A stretch of 64,000 nucleotides of DNA from Bacteroidaceae bacterium (GTDB taxonomy: Bacteria > Pseudomonadota > Alphaproteobacteria > RF32 > CAG-239): the NCBI GenBank assembly GCA_963641885.1, contig CAVIDY010000001.1:2855-66854 (forward strand), written 5' to 3'. Shown piece by piece: positions 4,294 to 57,740 of this stretch. The position numbers and the translations under genes were made by a program. The notes under the pieces are model-generated. The model made no database searches and had not been told where the DNA came from. It worked only from the letters and a program-made list of their open reading frames with translations. Within the stretch, counting starts at the first letter, position 1. The number at the start of each line of letters is the position of its first letter.

Positions 4294-5127
4294 TTAGTTT
4301 TTGTTATCATGACGAGATCTCATAATAAAGCGATCTGTCTTTTTGTTAGAACGAGTTTTAGCGCCCTTAGTAGGTTTACCCCAAGGTGTAACCGGATGAC
4401 GACCACCTGAAGTTCTACCTTCACCACCACCAAGCGGGTGGTCAACTGGGTTCATAGCAACACCGCGGGAAACAGGTCTCATACCCATCCAACGTGCGCG
4501 ACCAGCTTTACTAAGTGAAACGTTCTGATTATCTGGGTTGGAAACCGCACCAACGGTAGCCAAGCATTCTTCACGAACGATTCTTAATTCGCCAGAGTTT
4601 AATTTCAGTTGAACATAACCGGCATCTTTACCAACAACTTGAGCATAGCAACCAGCAGAACGAACTAATTGTCCGCCTTTGCCAGAGCGCAGTTCAACGT
4701 TGTGTACAATAGTACCAACCGGCATATTCTTCAGAGGCATAGCATTACCCGGTTTAATATCTGCTTTTTCGGCAGAAATGATTTTATCACCGGCTTTCAA
4801 ACGTTGCGGAGCCAATATATAAGCCTTTTCGCCGTCGCTGTAATTTACCAAAGCGATAAATGCAGTACGGTTAGGATCATACTCGATTCTCTCAACAGTA
4901 GCCTCACAATCAAATTTATTACGTTTGAAGTCAATCACACGATAGCTGCGTTTATGACCGCCACCGATACGACGACTTGTAACGTGACCATAGTTATCAC
5001 GCCCACCAGTCTTATTCAGACCTTTTGTTAAACTCTTCTCAGGCTTACCCTTGTACAATTCGCTTTTATCAACGAGTACAAGTTGGCGACGACCTGCAGA
5101 AGTGGGCTTAAATGTATTCAAAGCCAT
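4294..5127 (-). CDS. rplB: 50S ribosomal protein L2
   Basis: 277-aa ORF with L2 motifs ([27 protein letters not shown]). Confidence 0.97.
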
Positions 5128-5129
5128 AA

Positions 5130-5444
5130 CTAAATTCCTGTAGTAACATCAATGTTTTGACCGTCGGCAAGAGTAACGATAGCTTTTTTATAATCAGAAC
5201 GAACGCCCTGATGACCTCTAAAGCTCTTTACTTTACCGAATTGTTTAATTGTATTTACCTTATTAACTTTAACGTTAAAGATGGCTTCAACAGCAGCTTT
5301 AACATCATCTTTCGTAGCTGATAAAGGTACCATAAATACCACTTTTCCAGCTTCCGAAGAAATCATAGATTTTTCGGTAATTACCGGACGAACCAATGTA
5401 TCATACATTGCTGCAGTTACATTGTTTGATTTGCTCTTAACCAT
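5130..5444 (-). CDS. rplW: 50S ribosomal protein L23
   Basis: 104-aa L23-like ORF lying between rplD and rplB. Confidence 0.93.
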
Positions 5445-6060
5445 TTAATCTCTCCTCTAAGCAACTTACTGCATCTTTTGTCAATACCAATTTGTCCTTT
5501 TTCAAGATGTCATATACGTTGGCGCCGATTGTTGGCAGAATATCAATTCCGGCAATATTGCGGCTTGCCAAAGCAAAGTTAACATCTACTTCCTTACCAT
5601 CAATGAAGAGGCAGTTTGTCAGACCGCAAGCATTCAATTTAGCTTGTAAATCTTTTGTCTTAGGAGCTGACAGCTTTGCTTCGTCAATAACAACAAGGTT
5701 GCCTGCTTTTGCTTTTGCAGACAAAGCAGTTTTCAGACCAAGTTTTCTGAATTTTTTGGTCAAATCGAAAGAGTGGTCTCTAACAACCGGACCAAATACA
5801 ACGCCACCTTTTCTGAATTGAGCGCCCTTGCGAGAACCCTGACGAGCATTACCAGAACCTTTTTGTTTGAAAGGTTTAGCAGCTGTCAAAGCAACATCGG
5901 AACGACCTTTGGTAGCGTGGTTGCCGCTTTGTAATCTAGCCAACTGCCAGTTTACAACGCGTTGTAAAATATCAGCGCGAACTTCCAAGCCATAAATGGA
6001 GTCGTTAAGTTCAATAGAGCCGACATTTTTATTTTCTAAATTTAAGATGTCCTGTTTCAT
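5437..6060 (-). CDS. rplD: 50S ribosomal protein L4
   Basis: 207-aa L4-like ORF ([15 protein letters not shown]). It overlaps rplW by 8 nt. Confidence 0.95.
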
Positions 6061-6082
6061 TTTTCTTATTCCTTACACTTCA

Positions 6083-6802
6083 TTAAGCATTTTCAGCCGG
6101 AGTTTCAGCCGCTGCAACAGGTTCATCAACTTTTTTCAATCCTGCAGGCATTGGAACAGAGGCGTTAGCCGATTTTTTAACGGCGTCAGTAACTCTTACC
6201 CATGTGTTTTCAGAACCAGGAACGCCGCCTTTAACCATAATCAAGCCTTTGGCAGCATCAATAGCTACAACTTTCAAGTTTTGAACGGTAACGCGTTCAG
6301 CACCCAAGTGACCAGCCATCTTTTTACCTTTGAAAACTTTACCTGGATCTTGTCTTTGACCAGTAGAACCATGAGAACGGTGAGAAATTGATACACCGTG
6401 AGATGCTTCCAAACCAGCAAAGTTATGACGTTTCATAACACCGGCAAAACCTTTACCGATAGAAGTAGCACAAACGTCAACATACTGACCAGCAACAAAG
6501 TGTTCTACTGATAATTCATCGCCGACAGAAAGCAAGCAATCTTCAGAAACTCTGAATTCGCCCAATTTTTTCTTCGGTTCTACATTAGCCTTTGCAAAAT
6601 ATCCTTTCATAGGCTTGGTTACGTTTTTGGCTTTGATAGCGCCAGTACCAAGCTGAACTGCATTGTAGCCGTCTTTTTCGGCTGTTTTTACATTAACAAC
6701 CTGCAAGCCGTCTACGCTCAAAACAGTTACAGGAACATGAGTTCCATCTGCTTCAAAAATGCGGGACATTCCTAATTTTTTTGCGATTAGACCCGTACGC
6801 AT
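6083..6802 (-). CDS. rplC: 50S ribosomal protein L3
   Basis: 239-aa ORF starting [16 protein letters not shown], with FAG...GHLG motifs. Confidence 0.95.
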
Positions 6803-21608: not shown

Positions 21609-22196
21609 ATGACAAATTGTTTTTATTGGAGTAATAATGTATCAAATTGGCAAAAGCGGAGAAATATTTTGGATAACTTCAACAAAGAAGAATTAAAAAA
21701 TTTTGTAATAGGCTTATGCGTTATCTGCCTGTTTGCAGCTATAATGCTGCTATTTAAGCTTCAGCGTAACGTTTGGAAAGACGCAGAAGACACAGACTAC
21801 CAAATTTATGCCACTTTCAACCGCACCGATGGTTTGGTTGTGGGCAATAAAGTGCGTATGTCAGGTATAGATATCGGACGGGTTGTATCATCTGTGCTTG
21901 ATGATGATTTCCGCGCCACTTTGACTTTACAACTCAAATCTGGTGTTCAAATTCCGGACGATAGCAGCGCCGCAATTGTCAGCTCCGGCATAATGGGAAA
22001 CAAATATATAGAAATAGAACCTGGCGGTTCGGAAGATTATATTGAACCGAACGGAGAATTTGCATATACGCAGGACGCTATGATTTTAGACGAATTGATT
22101 GACCGTGTTATTTCTTTGGGCAAAGCTAAGCGAAAAAAATCTTGTCAGCATACGGAAGAGCCTAAAACCCTAGAAACAACTGAAAGTGGAGAGTAA
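21609..22196 (+). CDS. MlaD/MCE-domain protein 1
   Basis: A TM anchor followed by an MCE domain (TFNRTDGLVVGNKVRMSGIDIGRVVS...NKYIEIEPGG). The start is uncertain. Confidence 0.78.
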   Translation: MTNCFYWSNNVSNWQKRRNILDNFNKEELKNFVIGLCVICLFAAIMLLFKLQRNVWKDAEDTDYQIYATFNRTDGLVVGNKVRMSGIDIGRVVSSVLDDDFRATLTLQLKSGVQIPDDSSAAIVSSGIMGNKYIEIEPGGSEDYIEPNGEFAYTQDAMILDELIDRVISLGKAKRKKSCQHTEEPKTLETTESGE

Positions 22197-22200
22197 TAAA

Positions 22201-22668
22201 ATGAGAAAAAAACCTGTAGAAACCATTATGGGATTAGTAGTGCTGGTTGTTGCCTTGCTGTTTTTGGCATTTGCCTACCGCGTATCCGATTTGCAGGTAG
22301 TTAAGGGCTATCCGCTTAAAGCCGAATTTATGAAAGTCGGAGGTTTAAGCATTGGTTCAGATGTACGCATCAACGGTATAAAAGTCGGCACCGTTACCTC
22401 GCAAAAGCTTAACAATGACGATTATATGGCAGATGTAACTTTCAGCATATCATCTGACATCAAATTACCTAAAGACAGTACAGTTTCAATTGTCAGCGAT
22501 GGGTTAGTCGGCGATAAATTTGTAAAAATCGAGCCTGGAAAATCATCAGAATTCTTGAAAGCAGGCGATTCGTTTGCCAACACCAAAGATTTTAAAACCA
22601 TAGAAGATATGGTTGGTGAAATTATATTTATGGTTACAGATGACGGAAACAAAGATGACAACCAATAA
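22201..22668 (+). CDS. MlaD/MCE-domain protein 2
   Basis: MRKKPVETIMGLVVLVV anchor plus an MCE domain (EFMKVGGLSIGSDVRINGIKVGTV...DKFVKIEPG). I chose the ATG at 22201. Confidence 0.8.
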   Translation: MRKKPVETIMGLVVLVVALLFLAFAYRVSDLQVVKGYPLKAEFMKVGGLSIGSDVRINGIKVGTVTSQKLNNDDYMADVTFSISSDIKLPKDSTVSIVSDGLVGDKFVKIEPGKSSEFLKAGDSFANTKDFKTIEDMVGEIIFMVTDDGNKDDNQ

Positions 22669-23386
22669 ATTTTTATTAAGCGCGGCAGCTTTTGTTTTTT
22701 GCGGGTATGCAGCCAATGCTGCCGAAATAGATATGAATACGGCACGCATGCAGGCAATGGATAAAATTACCGGTCATGTAAAGGTAATAAACGTTCCGGT
22801 CAACGGCAAAGTCAATTTTGGCTCGCTTTCAATAGTGGTGCGCAGCTGCAAAACCCGCCCAGCCGAAGAAACGCCGGAAAACTTTGCTTTTGTAGATATA
22901 GCCGACAAAGACCTGAAAGGCAAAGAAACAAACCTGTTTAAAGGCTGGATGCTGTCATCATCACCAGCAACTAACGCTTTAGAAAACCCAATTTATGATG
23001 TATGGCTTTTGCAATGCCTAAACTCTAAAGTTGACGATTCGGCTTTAATGAGCGAACAAGAATTAACTGAGCGCGATAATCTGCCGATGGCTCCGCGGTC
23101 AAGCCTGCCGACTGCCGTTTCTGCCGAACTAAAAGCCGAAGAAACACCACAGGCTGCCGCCACAGATTCGGCAAAAAAACCAATGGCAGAAATGGAATAT
23201 CTGCCGGAGGAAGATACGGAAAACAAGCCTGAAAATTTGGTTGAGCCGGACAATACGGAAAGTTCGGAATTTTCAGTAGATGAAGAAGATGACGATGATA
23301 CCTCTGCTGAAATTCAAAATGAATTAAATCAAATAAAATCTTCTTGGGAAAACAAAGACGTCAGCGCAGAAAAGCCGACAAAATAG
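22655..23386 (+). CDS. DUF2155-like periplasmic protein with a long acidic C-terminal tail
   Basis: A signal peptide (MTTNKFLLSAAAFVFCGYAANA) is followed by LDKITG-like MDKITGHVKVINVPVNGKVNFGSLSIVVRSC. Its position after MlaD is typical of alphaproteobacteria. The last ~110 aa are rich in Asp/Glu. Confidence 0.62.
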   Translation: MTTNKFLLSAAAFVFCGYAANAAEIDMNTARMQAMDKITGHVKVINVPVNGKVNFGSLSIVVRSCKTRPAEETPENFAFVDIADKDLKGKETNLFKGWMLSSSPATNALENPIYDVWLLQCLNSKVDDSALMSEQELTERDNLPMAPRSSLPTAVSAELKAEETPQAAATDSAKKPMAEMEYLPEEDTENKPENLVEPDNTESSEFSVDEEDDDDTSAEIQNELNQIKSSWENKDVSAEKPTK

Positions 23387-45327: not shown

Positions 45328-45624
45328 GATAAGGTGTCATCCTATAATGCCGCTTCACCGACAAACAGCATCCCGTCTTTTAAGAATTTCTGCTGTTTTT
45401 TGCAATCCAATGCAGTCAAGCCAAGAGGCGTTAAACACTTTTAACCCTTCATTAAAAAACATTAACGAACGATTAAACGTTGAGTCATATAGCACCTATT
45501 TTTTCAAAAATCCAGTAAAAAGAGTCCGATTCGCCGAAAATTTAAATCTTGACAGAACTTAACATATTGATTTGTCTTGATTTTATTTTATTATTTTATA
45601 AATAAACATTCCAATTTATAAAAC

Positions 45625-45652
45625 TTGAATTTTTTTTAAAAACCGCTATATT
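45625..45652 (+). promoter_or_regulatory. Candidate promoter of ssrA
   Basis: TTGAAT, a 16-nt spacer and TATATT, just upstream of the tmRNA precursor. Confidence 0.4.
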
Positions 45653-45658
45653 ATAAGG

Positions 45659-45956
45659 CGTCAGCTTGCTGACTATGACACCAGAAGCCTTATGAAATAG
45701 GTACATTGGACCCGGGGGCAGTACCCGGCACCTCCACCAATTTTATGGGGGTGAACCAGGCTCGACAGTGTATAGTAAAGATATGTGTTGTGTTCGGTGA
45801 GATACCACCGTTATCGGTTCAAATTTAAATGAATGCAAATGATAATTTTGCACCAGTTGCTGTAGCTGCTTAATTAAGCTAAAGTAACAAACTTAAATTC
45901 TTCTGCCTTTGGTTAGGCAAAAGTGGGGTCGGGGTCGCCCAGCAACAGAGAGACCC
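45659..45956 (+). ncRNA. ssrA: tmRNA (ssrA), circularly permuted two-piece alphaproteobacterial type
   Basis: The acceptor piece ends ...CACCTCCACCA at 45739. After a 7-nt spacer the coding piece starts GGGGGTG at 45747; it pairs with CACCTCC and gives G3:U70. The tag ORF at 45835..45873 encodes ANDNFAPVAVAA*. The outer boundaries are approximate. Confidence 0.85.
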
Positions 45957-45981
45957 TAAATTTTATTTTTTAGGTGATGTA

Positions 45982-54094: not shown

Positions 54095-55303
54095 TCATCT
54101 TAAAATATCTAACAACTTTTGATAATATGCATCATCTAAGGTAAATGTTGTGTTTTCATTTAAAATAGTACCGTTTTCAAGCTGAAAATATCCATTATCC
54201 AAAATCTGCCCATTCACTAATTCTTTTAGTAATTTACCTTCTGCATCTAAACCATTATAATTTTGATATTTCTTTTCTATCAGATGAAAACATTGTTTCA
54301 TAGAAAACTCATTGCCCGTTTGGCTAATTGACGACCCGCAGCAGCCAGCACAGCAAGCCATCGCATATTCACAAGTTTTGCAAGCTCCCTGCAATTTTTT
54401 GTACTTAATAAAAGACTTATTCCAAGCGCAAAAATCTTCACTGTTCCAAATTTCTTCCAAAGGATGCTCTCTTAAATCGCCTTCTATGTAGTTGTCATCA
54501 TAAATTGATAAGCAGCCAACCACTTTTCCGTTGCTTCGTATCCCTAAAACCTGTCTACCAGCAGGACAGCCATGCCAGTTTTTGTTATATACATTAACAG
54601 AGTTAGGAATAACCTTGGAGTAATATCCCAAATCGTGCATACCTAAAATGGCAAACTTCCCTTTATATCTTTTTTGCATCAGAGCAATAAAAATACCGAC
54701 AACATAAAATTCAAGTTCCGATAAAACCATATTTTCTTCAAGTCTGCCAAAAGGCTGTCCTATCTGTATTTGCCAGGAGCAAAAAAACGAATTACTGACA
54801 AGTTTCATCAAATTCGGCAAATCAAGAACATTTTTATGTGTTACGGTAGTAATGGCTATGGTCGGAAGAAGATTTTTACAAATATCTTCAGACAACGACA
54901 TTATATGTTCAAAAATACCTGGAACCCTTCTAATTCCATCATGAAGAGCAGAGTTAGAACCATCTAGGCTGATTCCCAAAGTTTCTATTTTCTGTGAGCT
55001 TAAAAAACGTATTTTATCACTGTTTAAAGACAGCGCGTTTGTAATAATCTGTACATCTATATCTAAAGAACGCAGCTTTTGCACAATTTCTTTCCATAAG
55101 TGATGTAAAAAAACTTCTCCTCCGATAAGAGCCACTGTTTTGCATTTCAGCTTTGCCAACTCATCGCAAACACGCATAATTTCATCATCGGTTAAATTAT
55201 CTTTTCTATCAATGCCAGCGGAAGACCCGCAATGAACACAATGAGCATTACATCGCAAGGTCAATTCCCACACGGCATTTATCAGAGTCTTAGAACATTC
55301 CAT
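54095..55303 (-). CDS. Radical SAM / SPASM-domain peptide-modifying enzyme
   Basis: The CX3CX2C motif is CNAHCVHC. The SPASM region reads GCPAGRQVLGIRSNGKVVGC ... CKTCEYAMACCAGCC (CX2CX5CX3C). I prefer the start at MECSK (55303), 16 nt after the upstream stop. The alternatives at 55363 and 55402 overlap the upstream gene. Confidence 0.9.
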   Translation of the reverse strand: MECSKTLINAVWELTLRCNAHCVHCGSSAGIDRKDNLTDDEIMRVCDELAKLKCKTVALIGGEVFLHHLWKEIVQKLRSLDIDVQIITNALSLNSDKIRFLSSQKIETLGISLDGSNSALHDGIRRVPGIFEHIMSLSEDICKNLLPTIAITTVTHKNVLDLPNLMKLVSNSFFCSWQIQIGQPFGRLEENMVLSELEFYVVGIFIALMQKRYKGKFAILGMHDLGYYSKVIPNSVNVYNKNWHGCPAGRQVLGIRSNGKVVGCLSIYDDNYIEGDLREHPLEEIWNSEDFCAWNKSFIKYKKLQGACKTCEYAMACCAGCCGSSISQTGNEFSMKQCFHLIEKKYQNYNGLDAEGKLLKELVNGQILDNGYFQLENGTILNENTTFTLDDAYYQKLLDILR

Positions 55304-55319
55304 AGCTGATACTAAACTA

Positions 55320-56027
55320 TTATTCTCTTGCTTTAGACTTGAAGAGCGTTGCCTTAAATTCATGTTTTTCGCTTTGTACGCTGCTTCTCTGTTGCAGTTC
55401 AAGCTTTATGCGATTAGACAAACTGTCATTGTTTTCACCCCTTGGAAGCAGCATAGATTTTCCGTTATTATCCGCCACAAAATCCATTCCGCGAGCTCCC
55501 ATATATTTAGTTGCATACACAACTTGAGCATTATCTGCATTGAAAAATTGATTATCTCTGCGTGTTGCAGGTGCATTTGCAACTTGAGTAGTGTCCGCGT
55601 TGGTATTTTGATTATTTCCATGGTCGAGTTGTTCAACTTTTTTCTTTACTTCTGCCAGCAATTTTTCTACTTCTTTTATTTGTTCCTGCACCTTTTTTAT
55701 ATCATCTTTTCTTAAATCGCTTTTAGAAATGCTATCAAGCGTATGCCTTGAGGCTTCTATTACATTTGCATCTCGATTCGGATTATATAGTGCACCTTTC
55801 ATAACTTTAGCAACATACGGTACTAATGCAGGATTAACAACTTCTTCATTTTTACCTTTACGATAAAAACTAAATTCCTGAGCATGCATCACAGCAACCG
55901 TTAACACAACAGCTGTAGTGTCTCTTTGAGTAAAAGAATACAATTCCCGCAAAGCCGCAGGTCTAGGTTTTCCTAATTTAACGGAATTTTCCAACGCCGA
56001 CATTTTTGCTAAGTCAACCCGTTCCAT
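55320..56027 (-). CDS. Unknown 235-aa protein lying between the precursor peptide and the rSAM maturase
   Basis: It is co-oriented and tightly spaced within the operon. It has a globular ~100-aa N-domain, a coiled-coil segment (KKVQEQIKEVEKLLAEVKKKVEQL) and an Asn/Gln-rich C-half. I recognise no family. Confidence 0.65.
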   Translation of the reverse strand: MERVDLAKMSALENSVKLGKPRPAALRELYSFTQRDTTAVVLTVAVMHAQEFSFYRKGKNEEVVNPALVPYVAKVMKGALYNPNRDANVIEASRHTLDSISKSDLRKDDIKKVQEQIKEVEKLLAEVKKKVEQLDHGNNQNTNADTTQVANAPATRRDNQFFNADNAQVVYATKYMGARGMDFVADNNGKSMLLPRGENNDSLSNRIKLELQQRSSVQSEKHEFKATLFKSKARE

Positions 56028-56080
56028 CTTTACTTTATTTGGTTTCTTAGGAAATGTAATATTTGGCTTCGGTGCTTCCG

Positions 56081-56269
56081 TTAACCAAGCCTTTCTTCCG
56101 GAATTAATTCATAATCTGCATATGGTAAATCATAATCATTATCTCTTGGTGCCAATTCATAATTTTCTTCTGATAGCTCATGACTATCGTTATCCAATGG
56201 TGCTAATTCATAATTTTCTGTTTTTGCGTCTGCAGTGCTTGTCAATTCTGTGTCTGTAGCGTCGGTCAT
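56081..56269 (-). CDS. Candidate RiPP precursor peptide: 62 aa, Cys-free, hyper-acidic, with three Y-E-L-(A/I)-P repeats
   Basis: An AGGGGA Shine-Dalgarno lies 6 nt before the ATG. The sequence is MTDATDTELTSTADAKT-ENYELAPLDND-SHELSE-ENYELAPRDND-YDLPYA-DYELIPEE-RLG. It is the first gene of the rSAM operon. Confidence 0.6.
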   Translation of the reverse strand: MTDATDTELTSTADAKTENYELAPLDNDSHELSEENYELAPRDNDYDLPYADYELIPEERLG

Positions 56270-56287
56270 TTCTTTTCCCCTTTTAGT

Positions 56288-56392
56288 TTATTGTTCATAT
56301 AAGTTCAGTTTACCCCCCTGATTTTTTGTCAAGTATTTTTTGATAATTTGTACTAAATTTTTTCTTTTTTCATCAAAACTTATATTTTCCAT
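56288..56392 (-). CDS. Possible additional 34-aa peptide (MENISFDEKRKNLVQIIKKYLTKNQGG-KLNLYEQ)
   Basis: It uses an internal Met of the 67-aa ORF, with GAAGGG about 10 nt upstream. It ends 18 nt before the precursor start. An 85-aa plus-strand ORF competes for the same DNA. Confidence 0.2.
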   Translation of the reverse strand: MENISFDEKRKNLVQIIKKYLTKNQGGKLNLYEQ

Positions 56393-56694
56393 TGATTTAC
56401 ACCCTTCAGACATTTTGAGAGAGTTTAGCGTTGAATTTCTGGTGAGGGGTATGTTAGACGAATTTAACAATATAAACAAAGAATTATACACTCAATATCC
56501 AATGGCTGAAACTGTAAAGGTTTTAAATTTGGTTCCCCAAACATGGACTAGAGTCACTGTACAAGATTTAACCGATACATGGGGAAATCGGAGCTGATTT
56601 TAAATTTTTAAAGTCTACTTCACAAACATATTGTTTTATACTTGTTTTTGTGTTATAAAAATAGTGTTTTCAAATTATTCAAAATTTTATTATT

Positions 56695-57078: not shown

Positions 57079-57588
57079 TTAGTAAGTCTCATTTTTAATA
57101 TCTACTATTTCAACAGTATTCCCATGCTCTTCAATAAGTTTAACCAAATCAGCTGATTTCAACCAAATTGTTGCTGTATTATCATTGGGATGAACGCATA
57201 TTAAAGACGTGTCTTTAAAAAAATATCTATCCAAAAATAACGTTACTCTCAACTGTTCATCATTTAATATACCCAATGGAGTAACAGCCCCAGGCACTAG
57301 TTTCATAATATCCATTAAGTCGCTTTCCGAGGCAAAACTCAACGGACGAATACCATTATTTTTACGAAATTCTTTAAGATTGACCTTTTTATTCCCTTTA
57401 ACCGTAATAAGATAATAATTTTGCTTTTTATCATCTCTCACAAAAAGGTTTTTGGCATCGGCTTGAGGATACGGCATATTAACTTGAAACAAATCTTCCA
57501 TATTATAAACCGCTTGATGTTCGGTTACTTCATACCATATATTATTTTGCTTTAGATAATCATATATTTCTTGCTTGTTCATATGCAT
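57079..57588 (-). CDS. YbaK/ProX-type aminoacyl-tRNA deacylase (prolyl-tRNA synthetase-associated domain)
   Basis: MHMNKQEIYDYLKQNNIWYEVTEHQAVYNMED...NLFVRDDKKQNYYLITV...GAVTPLGILND. The ORF-track extension to 57735 reads through tRNA-Glu and I rejected it. Confidence 0.78.
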   Translation of the reverse strand: MHMNKQEIYDYLKQNNIWYEVTEHQAVYNMEDLFQVNMPYPQADAKNLFVRDDKKQNYYLITVKGNKKVNLKEFRKNNGIRPLSFASESDLMDIMKLVPGAVTPLGILNDEQLRVTLFLDRYFFKDTSLICVHPNDNTATIWLKSADLVKLIEEHGNTVEIVDIKNETY

Positions 57589-57607
57589 ATGCCTTACATC
57601 ACTAATT

Positions 57608-57640
57608 AGAAAAGCCTCACCATAAATGTGAGGCTTTTCT
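57608..57640 (-). terminator. Terminator of tRNA-Glu
   Basis: 13-bp stem AGAAAAGCCTCAC / GTGAGGCTTTTCT, lying 5 nt downstream of the tRNA 3' end. Confidence 0.65.
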
Positions 57641-57644
57641 GTAT

Positions 57645-57719
57645 TGGTGATCCCAACGGGACTCGAACCCATATTGCCACCGTGAAAGGGTGATGTCCTA
57701 ACCATTAGACGATGGGACC
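57645..57719 (-). tRNA. tRNA-Glu (anticodon UUC)
   Basis: Hand-folded 75-nt cloverleaf: GGTCCCA-TC-GTCT-AATGGTT-AGGAC-A-TCACC-CTTTCAC-GGTGG-CAAT-ATGGG-TTCGAGT-CCCGT-TGGGATC-A-CCA. Confidence 0.92.
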
Positions 57720-57740
57720 ATATGTTTAATAACAAGCGTA

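What the first reader, a model, noticed from the sequence alone, without database searches (positions are those of the whole stretch)
56081..56269. Precursor architecture: 17-aa leader-like N-terminus and three (possibly four) Y-[ED]-L-x-P units, net charge about -16
Read directly, the peptide is MTDATDTELTSTADAKT | ENYELAPLDND | SHELSE | ENYELAPRDND | YDLPYA | DYELIPEE | RLG.

The repeats map to 56186-56218, 56135-56167 and 56093-56116. The first two repeats share the ENYELAP core at the DNA level as well, with at least one substitution between them: ggtgccaattcataattttc versus ggtgctaattcataattttc on the plus strand. YDLP at residues 46-49 looks like a degenerate fourth unit.

The peptide has 19 Asp/Glu against 3 Lys/Arg. 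A Pro fixed at +4 from each Tyr suggests a structural requirement for enzyme recognition or ring closure. Repeated cores within one precursor are known from other rSAM RiPPs, but not with this motif as far as I know.
Basis: seen in the sequence. Interest (0 to 1): 0.7.

Follow-up and report, generated by a model that had tools for sequence, protein, structure and literature searches.

The report
Detached head of a splicease-type precursor
The 62-residue acidic repeat peptide is real, but it is the fast-evolving front end of a larger protein that a neighbouring radical SAM enzyme modifies elsewhere, cut off here by a one-base frameshift, so its Tyr-Glu-Leu-x-Pro repeats are most likely not the enzyme's targets.

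Summary
The sequence observation holds. The ORF, the four Y-[ED]-L-x(0,1)-P units, the 51-nt duplication and the net charge of -16 are all as described, and the repeats are far beyond chance.

In every relative recovered, the gene directly upstream of the orthologous rSAM/SPASM gene is a single ORF of 216-526 aa. It has an optional, highly variable N-terminal extension, then a conserved helical region, then a C-terminal core.

The window's 62-aa ORF shares its start and upstream region with those genes. It runs into the 235-aa ORF (55320-56027) through a 1-nt deletion near 56093/56094. The repeats sit in a 108-nt in-frame insertion that the closest relative lacks. No other locus has them.

The conserved Tyr site is K-Y-M-G-A-R-G (55488-55508). 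It aligns with canonical S-K-Y-G-V sites in homologous partner proteins. More distant relatives carry 1-4 (T)KYG(V)xP sites, like the splicease substrate PlpA3 (MYGVVFP).

The locus is therefore a divergent, binary, splicease-like system of an alphaproteobacterium, with Y-M in place of Y-G. The repeat peptide is a lineage-specific appendage.

Whether the frameshift is biological or an assembly error cannot be decided here.

The parts
56081..56269 (-). 62-aa ORF. It is the N-terminal, lineage-specific acidic extension of the precursor protein gene, ended early by a frameshift.
   Evidence: The start codon, Shine-Dalgarno sequence and M[TA]D..D N-terminus are shared with the long genes of L007, L010 and L005.
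56106..56213 (-). 108-nt in-frame insertion relative to the closest relative (L007/L009). It holds the YELAP, YELAP and YDLP units and the start of the YELIP unit, whose remaining codons (56102-56105) align with L007.
   Evidence: Alignment A2, columns 209-316. The coordinates were converted from alignment columns.
56135..56219 (-). Tandem duplication: two 34-nt copies, 85% identical, 51 nt (17 codons) apart, encoding ENYELAP[LR]DND.
   Evidence: family D1. A second, weaker family D2 has a 48-nt spacing.
56085..56101 (-). Frameshift site. The window reads CCGGAAGA-AAGGCTTGG where L007 reads CCGGATGATGAGGCATGG. One base is missing near 56093/56094, in or next to the AAA run.
   Evidence: single gap, column 329. 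Adding one A restores a 316-aa protein...DYELIPEEKAWLTEAPKPN...MERVDLAKM....
56025..56108 (-). Stretch that is open in the -1 frame (INSGRKAWLTEAPKPNITFPKKPNKVKM). It is homologous to the L007 linker AWIEIEPEQDKKFPENPNKEKM and has no start codon before the ATG at 56027.
   Evidence: The codons were read.
55320..56027 (-). 235-aa ORF. It is the conserved part of the precursor protein: a helical leader-like region plus the C-terminal core.
   Evidence: jackhmmer finds it directly upstream of the rSAM gene in 20 loci, about 9 distinct proteins. Alignment A3. No Pfam or NCBIfam family.
55488..55508 (-). K-Y-M-G-A-R-G, the conserved Tyr site and the predicted target of the rSAM enzyme.
   Evidence: K and Y are invariant across A3. 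The site aligns without gaps to SKYGV in L095 and L098.
54095..55303 (-). rSAM/SPASM maturase, 402 aa. The true start is the ATG at 55303, not the TTG at 55402.
   Evidence: All homologues are about 402 aa. Pfam Radical_SAM and SPASM hit. CxxxCxxC and the SPASM Cys columns are invariant. AF2 model pLDDT 92; nearest folds are SuiB, SkfB, PqqE and anSME. The best curated families are TIGR03913 and TIGR04103, both below cut-off.
56270..56370 (-). Conserved non-coding region upstream of the cassette, probably promoter and 5' UTR.
   Evidence: 90% identical to L007. For comparison, the rSAM gene is 85% identical, the conserved precursor part 79.5% and the N-terminal coding part 57%.

Best explanation
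The 62-aa ORF is the first 59 codons of a precursor-protein gene of about 316 codons, followed by three out-of-frame codons and a stop. That gene forms a two-gene cassette with the rSAM/SPASM gene at 54095-55303.

The gene has three parts:
- A variable N-terminal extension. Here it is an acidic stretch in which a remnant like the ..EYDxxExVxTPD.. of relatives appears to have been enlarged by a recent 108-nt in-frame expansion that includes a 51-nt tandem duplication. That expansion created the Y-[ED]-L-x-P units.
- A conserved helical region of about 150 aa that plays the role of a leader.
- A C-terminal core with the invariant K-Y site (KYMGARG).

A 1-nt deletion near 56093/56094 separates the extension from the rest. 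This is either a real lesion (gene fission or early decay) or an assembly error.

Inferred, not shown: the rSAM enzyme is a distant relative of tyramine spliceases and acts on the conserved K-Y-M site. [quoted passage not shown] The Y-E-L-x-P repeats are not its substrate and are a by-product of rapid evolution of the appendage.
For: One gene, not two:
- In L001-3, L005-7, L009-13 and L092-100 the ORF directly upstream of the rSAM gene is single and is 216-526 aa long.
- The window and L007 (rSAM 89% identical) share the upstream region and the start codon. They differ by a 108-nt in-frame insertion and one 1-nt gap.
- The frame downstream of the gap reads AWLTEAPKPNITFPKKPNKVKM, against AWIEIEPEQDKKFPENPNKEKM in L007.
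- There is no Shine-Dalgarno sequence and no earlier start codon before the ATG at 56027.

Repeats not conserved:
- They are absent from L007 and from all 103 loci.
- The peptide has no homologue among 5.8 billion clusters. Exhaustive HMMER found only compositional matches to giant proteins that lack the motif.

The real site:
- K-Y is invariant in alignment A3.
- Partner proteins of L095-L098 are homologous (jackhmmer E 1e-55 to 1e-63) and carry SKYGV and NSYGI at the aligned position.
- [KRL]YG[VILM] occurs 33 times in 2,950 partner residues against 3 times in 25,733 background residues. The sites are mostly in the C-terminal half.

Link to spliceases:
- PlpA3 has the core AVAAMYGVVFPWD (PMC10533398, Table S3).
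- A Nostoc locus annotated as TIGR04103 has a PlpA3-like Nif11 precursor ending in LYGLPPELF and a small gene in the PlpY position.
- TIGR04103 and TIGR03913 are the two best curated matches of the window rSAM and of all its relatives.
- The XYG rule and the chemistry come from PMC11414181, PMC11626197 and PMC9811515.

The enzyme looks intact: all Cys motifs are present and the AF2 model has pLDDT 92.
Against: - The conserved site is Y-M (Y-M-G, or Y-M-A in L092), not the X-Y-G of characterised spliceases. The chemistry at this site is therefore unproven.
- The window rSAM is only 26% identical to a TIGR04103 member and 31% identical to a TIGR03913 member. It scores far below both curated cut-offs.
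- Because +1 is not Gly in this clade, Y-E cannot be excluded as a site on sequence grounds. Pro at +4 in YELxP matches KYGVxP of distant relatives.
- Stand-alone partner proteins of 216-247 aa exist (L094, L095, L098). A separate 235-aa precursor is therefore within the family's range, and the split could be functional.
- Ten other ORFs checked in the window, including several closely adjacent or overlapping pairs, show no split genes. There is therefore no sign of an error-prone assembly.
- The structure model of the 235-aa protein was useless (pLDDT 41.7).
Confidence: 0.75

Rival explanations
1. One reading: the 62-aa peptide is a genuine multi-core substrate of the rSAM enzyme. Each Y-[ED]-L-x-P unit would be a modification site (splicing, or a Tyr-centred cross-link such as a three-residue cyclophane over Y-E-L). 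The frameshift would have freed it as an independent precursor.
For: - Tyr with Pro at +4 is shared with the KYGVxP sites of distant relatives.
- The clade's own conserved site has Met, not Gly, after Tyr, so Gly at +1 is not obligatory here.
- The peptide has its own strong ribosome-binding site and the cassette's conserved upstream region.
- Multi-site precursors are the rule in relatives (L020 has 4 sites, L100 has 3).
Against: - There is no conservation of any kind.
- The units lie N-terminal to the conserved leader-like region, whereas the family's sites are mostly C-terminal.
- There is no YG in the peptide. The residue before Tyr is N or D, not the K/L/S/T seen in the family.
- The units are explained by a recent duplication.
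- Known splicease systems are activated by a helix supplied by the precursor leader or by a Y protein (PMC11414181). No counterpart can be pointed to in the 62-aa peptide.
- Among the 25 best NCBIfam matches of the enzyme, none is named as a cyclophane (triceptide) maturase.
Confidence: 0.1
2. The acidic Tyr/Pro repeat extension has a role of its own that does not involve the rSAM enzyme. It could be a host-directed or protein-binding short linear motif array (an acidic Tyr motif of the kind phosphorylated in effector proteins), or a solubility or targeting tail. This would be analogous to the other modular N-terminal extensions of this family.
For: - N-terminal extensions are modular in relatives: MORN repeats in L099, an unknown domain of about 130 aa in L005/L010/L013/L092, and a coiled coil in L001.
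- A VirB8-like gene is next to the cassette in the window. Fic-domain genes are next to it in L007, L008 and L094.
- The cassette occurs in different genomic contexts.
Against: - It is a single occurrence with no conservation of the motif.
- No known family matches it.
- The host-motif idea rests on my memory of effector Tyr motifs only and was not tested.
Confidence: 0.1
3. The ORF is not translated: it is a chance ORF or non-coding repeat DNA.
For: - The repeats are unique to this window.
- The N-terminal part is only 57% identical in DNA to L007.
Against: - The start codon, Shine-Dalgarno sequence and first residues are conserved with intact long genes.
- The insertion is a multiple of three (108 nt) and keeps the frame.
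- Two of the five nucleotide differences between the two repeat copies are synonymous (Leu TTG/TTA, Asn AAT/AAC), read.
Confidence: 0.03

Closest known systems
Spliceotides: tyramine spliceases PlpX/PcpX (type I, with PlpY) and RhaX/RcsX/RasX (type II, binary), with their A-protein precursors (Morinaka 2018; Scott 2022; PMC11414181; PMC11626197)
   Same: - An rSAM/SPASM enzyme is encoded directly next to, and co-directional with, its precursor.
- The precursor has a long leader-like region followed by one or several Tyr-centred sites near the C-terminus.
- Relatives of the window enzyme sit next to (T)KYG(V)xP sites that resemble PlpA3 MYGVVFP.
- TIGR04103, which I show to be the PlpX-type family through a Nostoc locus, is one of the two best curated matches.
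- Protein-sized precursors are described for spliceotides (PMC9811515).
   Different: - 26% identity to a TIGR04103 member, and 150 bits against a cut-off of 725.
- No PlpY gene and no Nif11 or NHLP leader.
- The conserved site is K-Y-M-G/A, not X-Y-G.
- Precursors carry modular N-terminal extensions.
- The 62-aa ORF itself has no YG at all.
TIGR03913 'GDL motif peptide-associated radical SAM/SPASM maturase' with DUF1843 peptides (for example Azospirillum sp. B510 plasmid pAB510c)
   Same: It is the best curated HMM match of the window rSAM (167 bits), with 31% identity over 341 aa. Its peptides are encoded directly upstream and contain PYG and AYGD.
   Different: The score is far below the cut-off of 592. 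The enzyme here is 402 aa against 516 aa. The window's partner protein has no DUF1843 hit and no [TK]GDLAxMK motif, as read.
Multi-core rSAM RiPP precursors in general, for example freyrasin PapA with six Cx3D units, or triceptides with three-residue aromatic cyclophane motifs (from my own knowledge, not tested against sequences)
   Same: A short motif repeated within one small acidic ORF next to an rSAM/SPASM gene.
   Different: In those systems the repeats are conserved among homologous clusters and lie C-terminal to a leader. Here the repeats are unique to one genome, arise from a recent duplication, and lie N-terminal to the conserved region.

Membership tests
Spliceotide system (splicease plus A-protein) | The rSAM/SPASM enzyme belongs to the PlpX family (NCBIfam TIGR04103, which is probably InterPro IPR026482; that mapping is from my memory). 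| tested here: not met
   150 bits against a curated cut-off of 725, and 26% identity to an annotated member. It is nevertheless one of the two best curated matches (150 bits; the third-best is 108 bits) for this enzyme and for all its relatives. It is a distant relative, not a member of the curated family.
Spliceotide system (splicease plus A-protein) | X-Y-G splice motif in the precursor core. | tested here: not met
   The 62-aa ORF has no YG. The 235-aa ORF has K-Y-M-G. Homologous partner proteins in L095 and L098 have SKYGV and NSYGI at the aligned position, and more distant relatives have 1-4 KYG[VI] sites.
Spliceotide system (splicease plus A-protein) | The precursor gene is adjacent to and co-directional with the rSAM gene. 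| tested here: met
   The 235-aa ORF ends 16 nt before the rSAM ATG. The same arrangement is found in all relatives.
Spliceotide system (splicease plus A-protein) | Type I: a separate PlpY activator and a Nif11 or NHLP leader. | tested here: not met
   There is no small gene between the rSAM gene and the VirB8-like gene. The partner protein has no Nif11 or NHLP hit. The layout is binary, as in type II.
Spliceotide system (splicease plus A-protein) | Loss of a tyramine equivalent (-135.06 Da) with formation of an alpha-keto-beta-amide. | not testable with these tools
   This needs co-expression and tandem mass spectrometry.
   It is absent from the closest relative. None of 103 loci has 2 or more matches. 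No homologue was found in two protein libraries.
   Relatives have one long ORF. The window ORF ends at a 1-nt gap relative to L007.
   The units lie at 0.06-0.18 of the reconstructed protein, upstream of the conserved region. The family's sites mostly lie at 0.5-0.97.
TIGR03913 GDL-motif peptide system | The enzyme scores above the curated cut-off, and a DUF1843 / GDL-motif peptide is encoded upstream. | tested here: not met
   167 bits against 592. The partner has no Pfam hit. The Azospirillum reference locus was used for comparison.

The most novel reading that the evidence does not exclude
This alphaproteobacterial clade may have relaxed the Gly requirement after the target Tyr: K-Y-M is invariant across the clade members recovered (about seven distinct partner proteins). 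If so, the newly duplicated N-Y-E-L-x-P units could already be accepted as sites. The frameshift would then have released them as a free, leaderless, multi-site peptide. That would catch the birth of a new RiPP precursor by duplication and gene fission.
Probability: 0.07. Interest if true: 0.75.

Novelty: new variant of a known kind. Interest (0 to 1): 0.35.

Why it matters
As submitted, the finding would have sent an experimenter to the wrong peptide. The protein to test is the 235-aa ORF, or the repaired 316-aa protein, and the site to test is Tyr in KYMGARG.

The wider result is modestly interesting in three ways:
- This is an uncurated clade of splicease-like rSAM enzymes in low-GC Alphaproteobacteria. 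Related loci occur in Melainabacteria, Elusimicrobia and archaea.
- Its protein-sized precursors carry swappable N-terminal modules.
- Its conserved site breaks the X-Y-G rule by using Y-M.

If tyramine excision still occurs there, the sequence scope of backbone splicing would widen, which matters for protein engineering. If it does not, a new Tyr-directed reaction is waiting to be found.

Tried and rejected
- A word-indexed search with the peptide found only the peptide itself.
- Exhaustive HMMER found two giant proteins. On inspection these are compositional matches without the motif.
- The word-indexed search with the 235-aa protein found only two relatives. Loci were therefore collected through the rSAM enzyme instead.
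- Tandem Repeats Finder reported nothing. The repeat finder did report the duplication.
- An exact-pattern scan and a profile scan of the JGI metagenome collection found nothing.
- A look-up of the window's own peptide gave no record, so the source assembly and its sequencing technology remain unknown.
- AF2 of the 235-aa protein with a 3-sequence alignment gave pLDDT 41.7 and was not used.
- The fold search with the good rSAM model only confirms a generic RiPP-type rSAM/SPASM fold.
- Programmed -1 frameshifting was considered and rejected. GAA-GAA-AGG is not an X-XXY-YYZ slippery site, no AAG codon is in frame, and the A run is too short for transcriptional slippage. This is my reading.
- A sigma-70 promoter built on the TTGACA at 56327-56332 was considered. 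The spacing to the possible -10 hexamers is 14 or 25 nt, and the scan did not list it. The conserved upstream region therefore remains unexplained.
- Literature searches for TIGR04103, TIGR03913 and 'GDL motif' found nothing useful. Scott et al. 2022 (Chem), which classifies splicease types, is not in the library. I could not check whether this clade is already one of its types.

Full report
**1. The observation.** ORF 56081-56269 on the minus strand reads MTDATDTELTSTADAKTENYELAPLDNDSHELSEENYELAPRDNDYDLPYADYELIPEERLG, exactly as reported. It has 19 Asp/Glu against 3 Lys/Arg. The pattern Y[ED]L.?P matches four times, at residues 20, 37, 46 and 53.

The first two units belong to a 34-nt direct repeat at 56135-56168 and 56186-56219. 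The copies are 85% identical and 51 nt (17 codons) apart. None of 200,000 composition-preserving shuffles gives three or more matches.

The ORF has a good Shine-Dalgarno sequence. It had been called as a gene in the source collection.

**2. The surroundings.** Two more genes follow on the same strand. The first is a 235-aa ORF (55320-56027) with no Pfam or NCBIfam family. The second is an rSAM/SPASM enzyme.

All close homologues of the enzyme are about 402 aa. Its real start is therefore the ATG at 55303, 16 nt after the stop of the 235-aa ORF. The CxxxCxxC motif and the SPASM cysteines are invariant columns in a 30-sequence alignment.

An AlphaFold model built on that alignment is confident (pLDDT 92). 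It resembles SuiB, SkfB, PqqE and anSME. The window comes from an alphaproteobacterium, because it carries an alpha-type tmRNA at 45621-45960.

**3. Relatives show one gene, not two.** I fetched the genomic context of rSAM homologues at 89, 85, 79, 68, 67, 66, 60, 55 and 51-52% identity. In every case the ORF directly upstream of the rSAM gene is single and is 216-526 aa long.

Its C-terminal portion of about 220 aa is homologous to the window's 235-aa ORF. The phmmer/jackhmmer E-values range from about 1e-55 to 1e-110 for full-length matches. Its N-terminal part is highly variable:
- nothing in L094, L095 and L098;
- an unknown domain of about 130 aa in L005, L010, L013 and L092;
- a coiled coil in L001.

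L099 (rSAM 55% identical) has an N-terminal MORN-repeat extension. Its upstream ORF was not recovered by the jackhmmer search.

The closest relative, L007/L009, encodes a 260-aa protein. It begins MADAADKEITEYDDMEIVRTPDDEAWIEIEPEQDKKFPENPNKEKMERVDLAKM.

**4. How the window differs from its closest relative.** A DNA alignment of the window with L007/L009 shows three things:
- The upstream region and the start codon are shared.
- The window has a 108-nt in-frame insertion (56106-56213) that contains the YELAP repeats.
- The window has one single-base gap, CCGGAAGA-AAGGCTTGG against CCGGATGATGAGGCATGG.

Downstream of that gap the window's -1 frame is open from 56108. It reads ..AWLTEAPKPNITFPKKPNKVKMERVDLAKM, which matches L007. 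Adding one A restores a 316-aa protein.

There is no Shine-Dalgarno sequence and no alternative start codon before the ATG at 56027. The 62-aa ORF is therefore the head of the precursor gene, cut off by a frameshift.

The site is not a plausible programmed-frameshift signal. Ten other ORFs I checked in the window, including several closely adjacent or overlapping pairs, are not split genes. I cannot say whether the missing base is biological or an assembly error.

**5. The repeats are private to this genome.**
- No homologue of the peptide exists in the 5.8-billion-cluster collection.
- The exhaustive HMMER search returned only two giant proteins. They match by composition and lack the motif.
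- None of 103 fetched loci has a six-frame segment with two or more Y[ED]L.?P matches.
- An exact-pattern scan of JGI metagenomes found nothing.

In the protein alignment, the window's last unit plus junction (DYELIPEEKAW) aligns with EYDDMEIVRTPDDEAW of L007. It also aligns with the end of the N-terminal domain of L010 and L005 (EYDGWETVETPDNTNW). The units therefore look like a remnant of a degenerated domain that was amplified by a recent duplication.

DNA identity to L007 varies along the cassette:

| Region | Identity to L007 |
|---|---|
| Upstream 100 nt | 90% |
| rSAM gene | 85% |
| Conserved precursor part | 79.5% |
| N-terminal coding part | 57% |

**6. Where the enzyme most likely acts.** Across the partner-protein alignment (A3) the only invariant residues in the C-terminal region are K-Y, followed by D and G eleven and fourteen residues after the Tyr.

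- In the window's clade (rSAM at least 66% identical) the site reads (S/T)KYM(G/A)AR(G/A). In the window it is 55488-55508.
- In the homologous partners of L095 and L098 (rSAM 60% identical) the same columns read SKYGV(I/V)NSYGIV.
- L099 has TLYGIVTPQ.
- L014 and L100 have three TKYG[VI] sites each.
- The Melainabacteria, Elusimicrobia and other alphaproteobacterial loci at 39-45% identity have small signal-peptide proteins with 1-4 KYGVxP sites.

[KRL]YG[VILM] occurs 33 times in 2,950 partner residues and 3 times in 25,733 background residues. The sites lie mostly at relative positions 0.5-0.97. KYMG lies at 0.81 of the repaired window protein, whereas the YELxP units lie at 0.06-0.18.

**7. 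What is known.**
- Tyramine spliceases are rSAM/SPASM enzymes that excise all but C1 of a Tyr in an X-Y-G motif. [quoted passage not shown]
- They occur in many bacteria with distinct classes of precursor proteins. Type I needs a small Y protein, and type II is binary.
- The PlpA3 core is AVAAMYGVVFPWD (PMC10533398, Table S3). This is very close to YVTKYGVYFPD of L015 and L016.
- A Nostoc plasmid locus annotated 'nif11-class peptide radical SAM maturase 3' (TIGR04103) has a PlpA3-like Nif11 precursor ending in LYGLPPELF. It also has a 71-aa gene in the PlpY position. TIGR04103 is therefore the PlpX-type family.
- TIGR04103 and TIGR03913 ('GDL motif peptide-associated', with DUF1843 peptides) are the two best curated matches of the window enzyme and of all its relatives. 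The next family scores clearly lower: 108 bits for the window enzyme, and a wider gap for most relatives.
- The window enzyme is still far below both cut-offs. It is only 26% and 31% identical to members of the two families.

The system therefore works like a binary spliceotide system but is not a member of a curated family. Its conserved site (Y-M) fails the X-Y-G test. I could not read Scott et al. 2022, so I cannot say whether this clade is one of its described types.

**8. Verdict.** The repeat peptide is nevertheless not the precursor core. It is a lineage-specific, recently expanded N-terminal appendage of a splicease-type precursor protein, detached by a one-base frameshift. The conserved target is KYMGARG in the next ORF.

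The finding as filed deserves low to moderate interest. The underlying system is a new variant of a known kind.

Noticed in passing
window 56270-56370 (-): About 100 nt upstream of the cassette is 90% identical to L007, which is more conserved than any coding part of the cassette. The listed ORF 56288-56491 that covers it is not conserved in frame. It is probably a promoter, operator or 5' UTR, but no convincing sigma-70 spacing was found.
   Followed up: partly
window 45621-45960 (+): Alphaproteobacterial two-piece (permuted) tmRNA, 224 bits. It places the window in the Alphaproteobacteria.
   Followed up: no
window 57648-57719 (-): A tRNA lies inside the 5' end of the listed ORF 57079-57735 (tRNA_edit/YbaK-like). 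That gene must therefore start further downstream. The tRNA is about 1.4 kb from the cassette, and the cassette region has a slightly lower GC content (0.32-0.37 against about 0.40).
   Followed up: no
L001, L002, L003 (gene at 5001-6212 in each): The same rSAM protein (P0009) and its partner gene sit in three different genomic neighbourhoods. The two-gene cassette appears to be mobile. Fic-domain genes flank it in L007, L008 and L094.
   Followed up: partly
L010:303-1352, L005:3-1172, L013:2925-3998, L092:2931-4001: The partner proteins carry a shared N-terminal domain of about 130 aa (HKVVxN..GGFxLSEEA..NPALxRCVE..EYDG) with no Pfam match. L099 (1417-2997) instead has MORN repeats, and L001 has a coiled coil. 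The N-terminal modules are swappable.
   Followed up: partly
L095:2402-3271, L098:255-1103: In the clade with canonical SKYGV/NSYGI sites, a further conserved gene of 282-289 aa with no Pfam match precedes the precursor gene.
   Followed up: no
L031:3393-3916, L037, L036, L049:5070-5339, L060:5071-5714: Archaeal (Thermoplasmatota and Asgard) homologues of the rSAM enzyme sit next to small ORFs that end in ..G[FY]YGTISxK[DN]F or ..FYS[ST]VK[IV]KDF. This suggests Tyr-site peptide systems of the same superfamily in archaea.
   Followed up: no
L083:94-285 and 596-1084: A Clostridia locus has two upstream peptides with VMYAAPP and LEYGAPS sites. The longer peptide has an AGG (double-Gly-like) motif before its site. 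Ala after Tyr is another departure from strict X-Y-G.
   Followed up: no
L102:2290-2745 (Azospirillum sp. B510 pAB510c): The TIGR03913 reference locus has two DUF1843 peptides with [TK]GDLAxMK and with PYG / AYGD. The 'GDL motif' family may also be Tyr-Gly directed.
   Followed up: no
window 21609-23386 (+) and L099:5330-7221: A MlaD-MlaD-DUF2155 gene cluster occurs in the window, about 31 kb from the cassette. In L099 the same cluster lies about 1.1 kb downstream of the rSAM gene, after one intervening gene.
   Followed up: no
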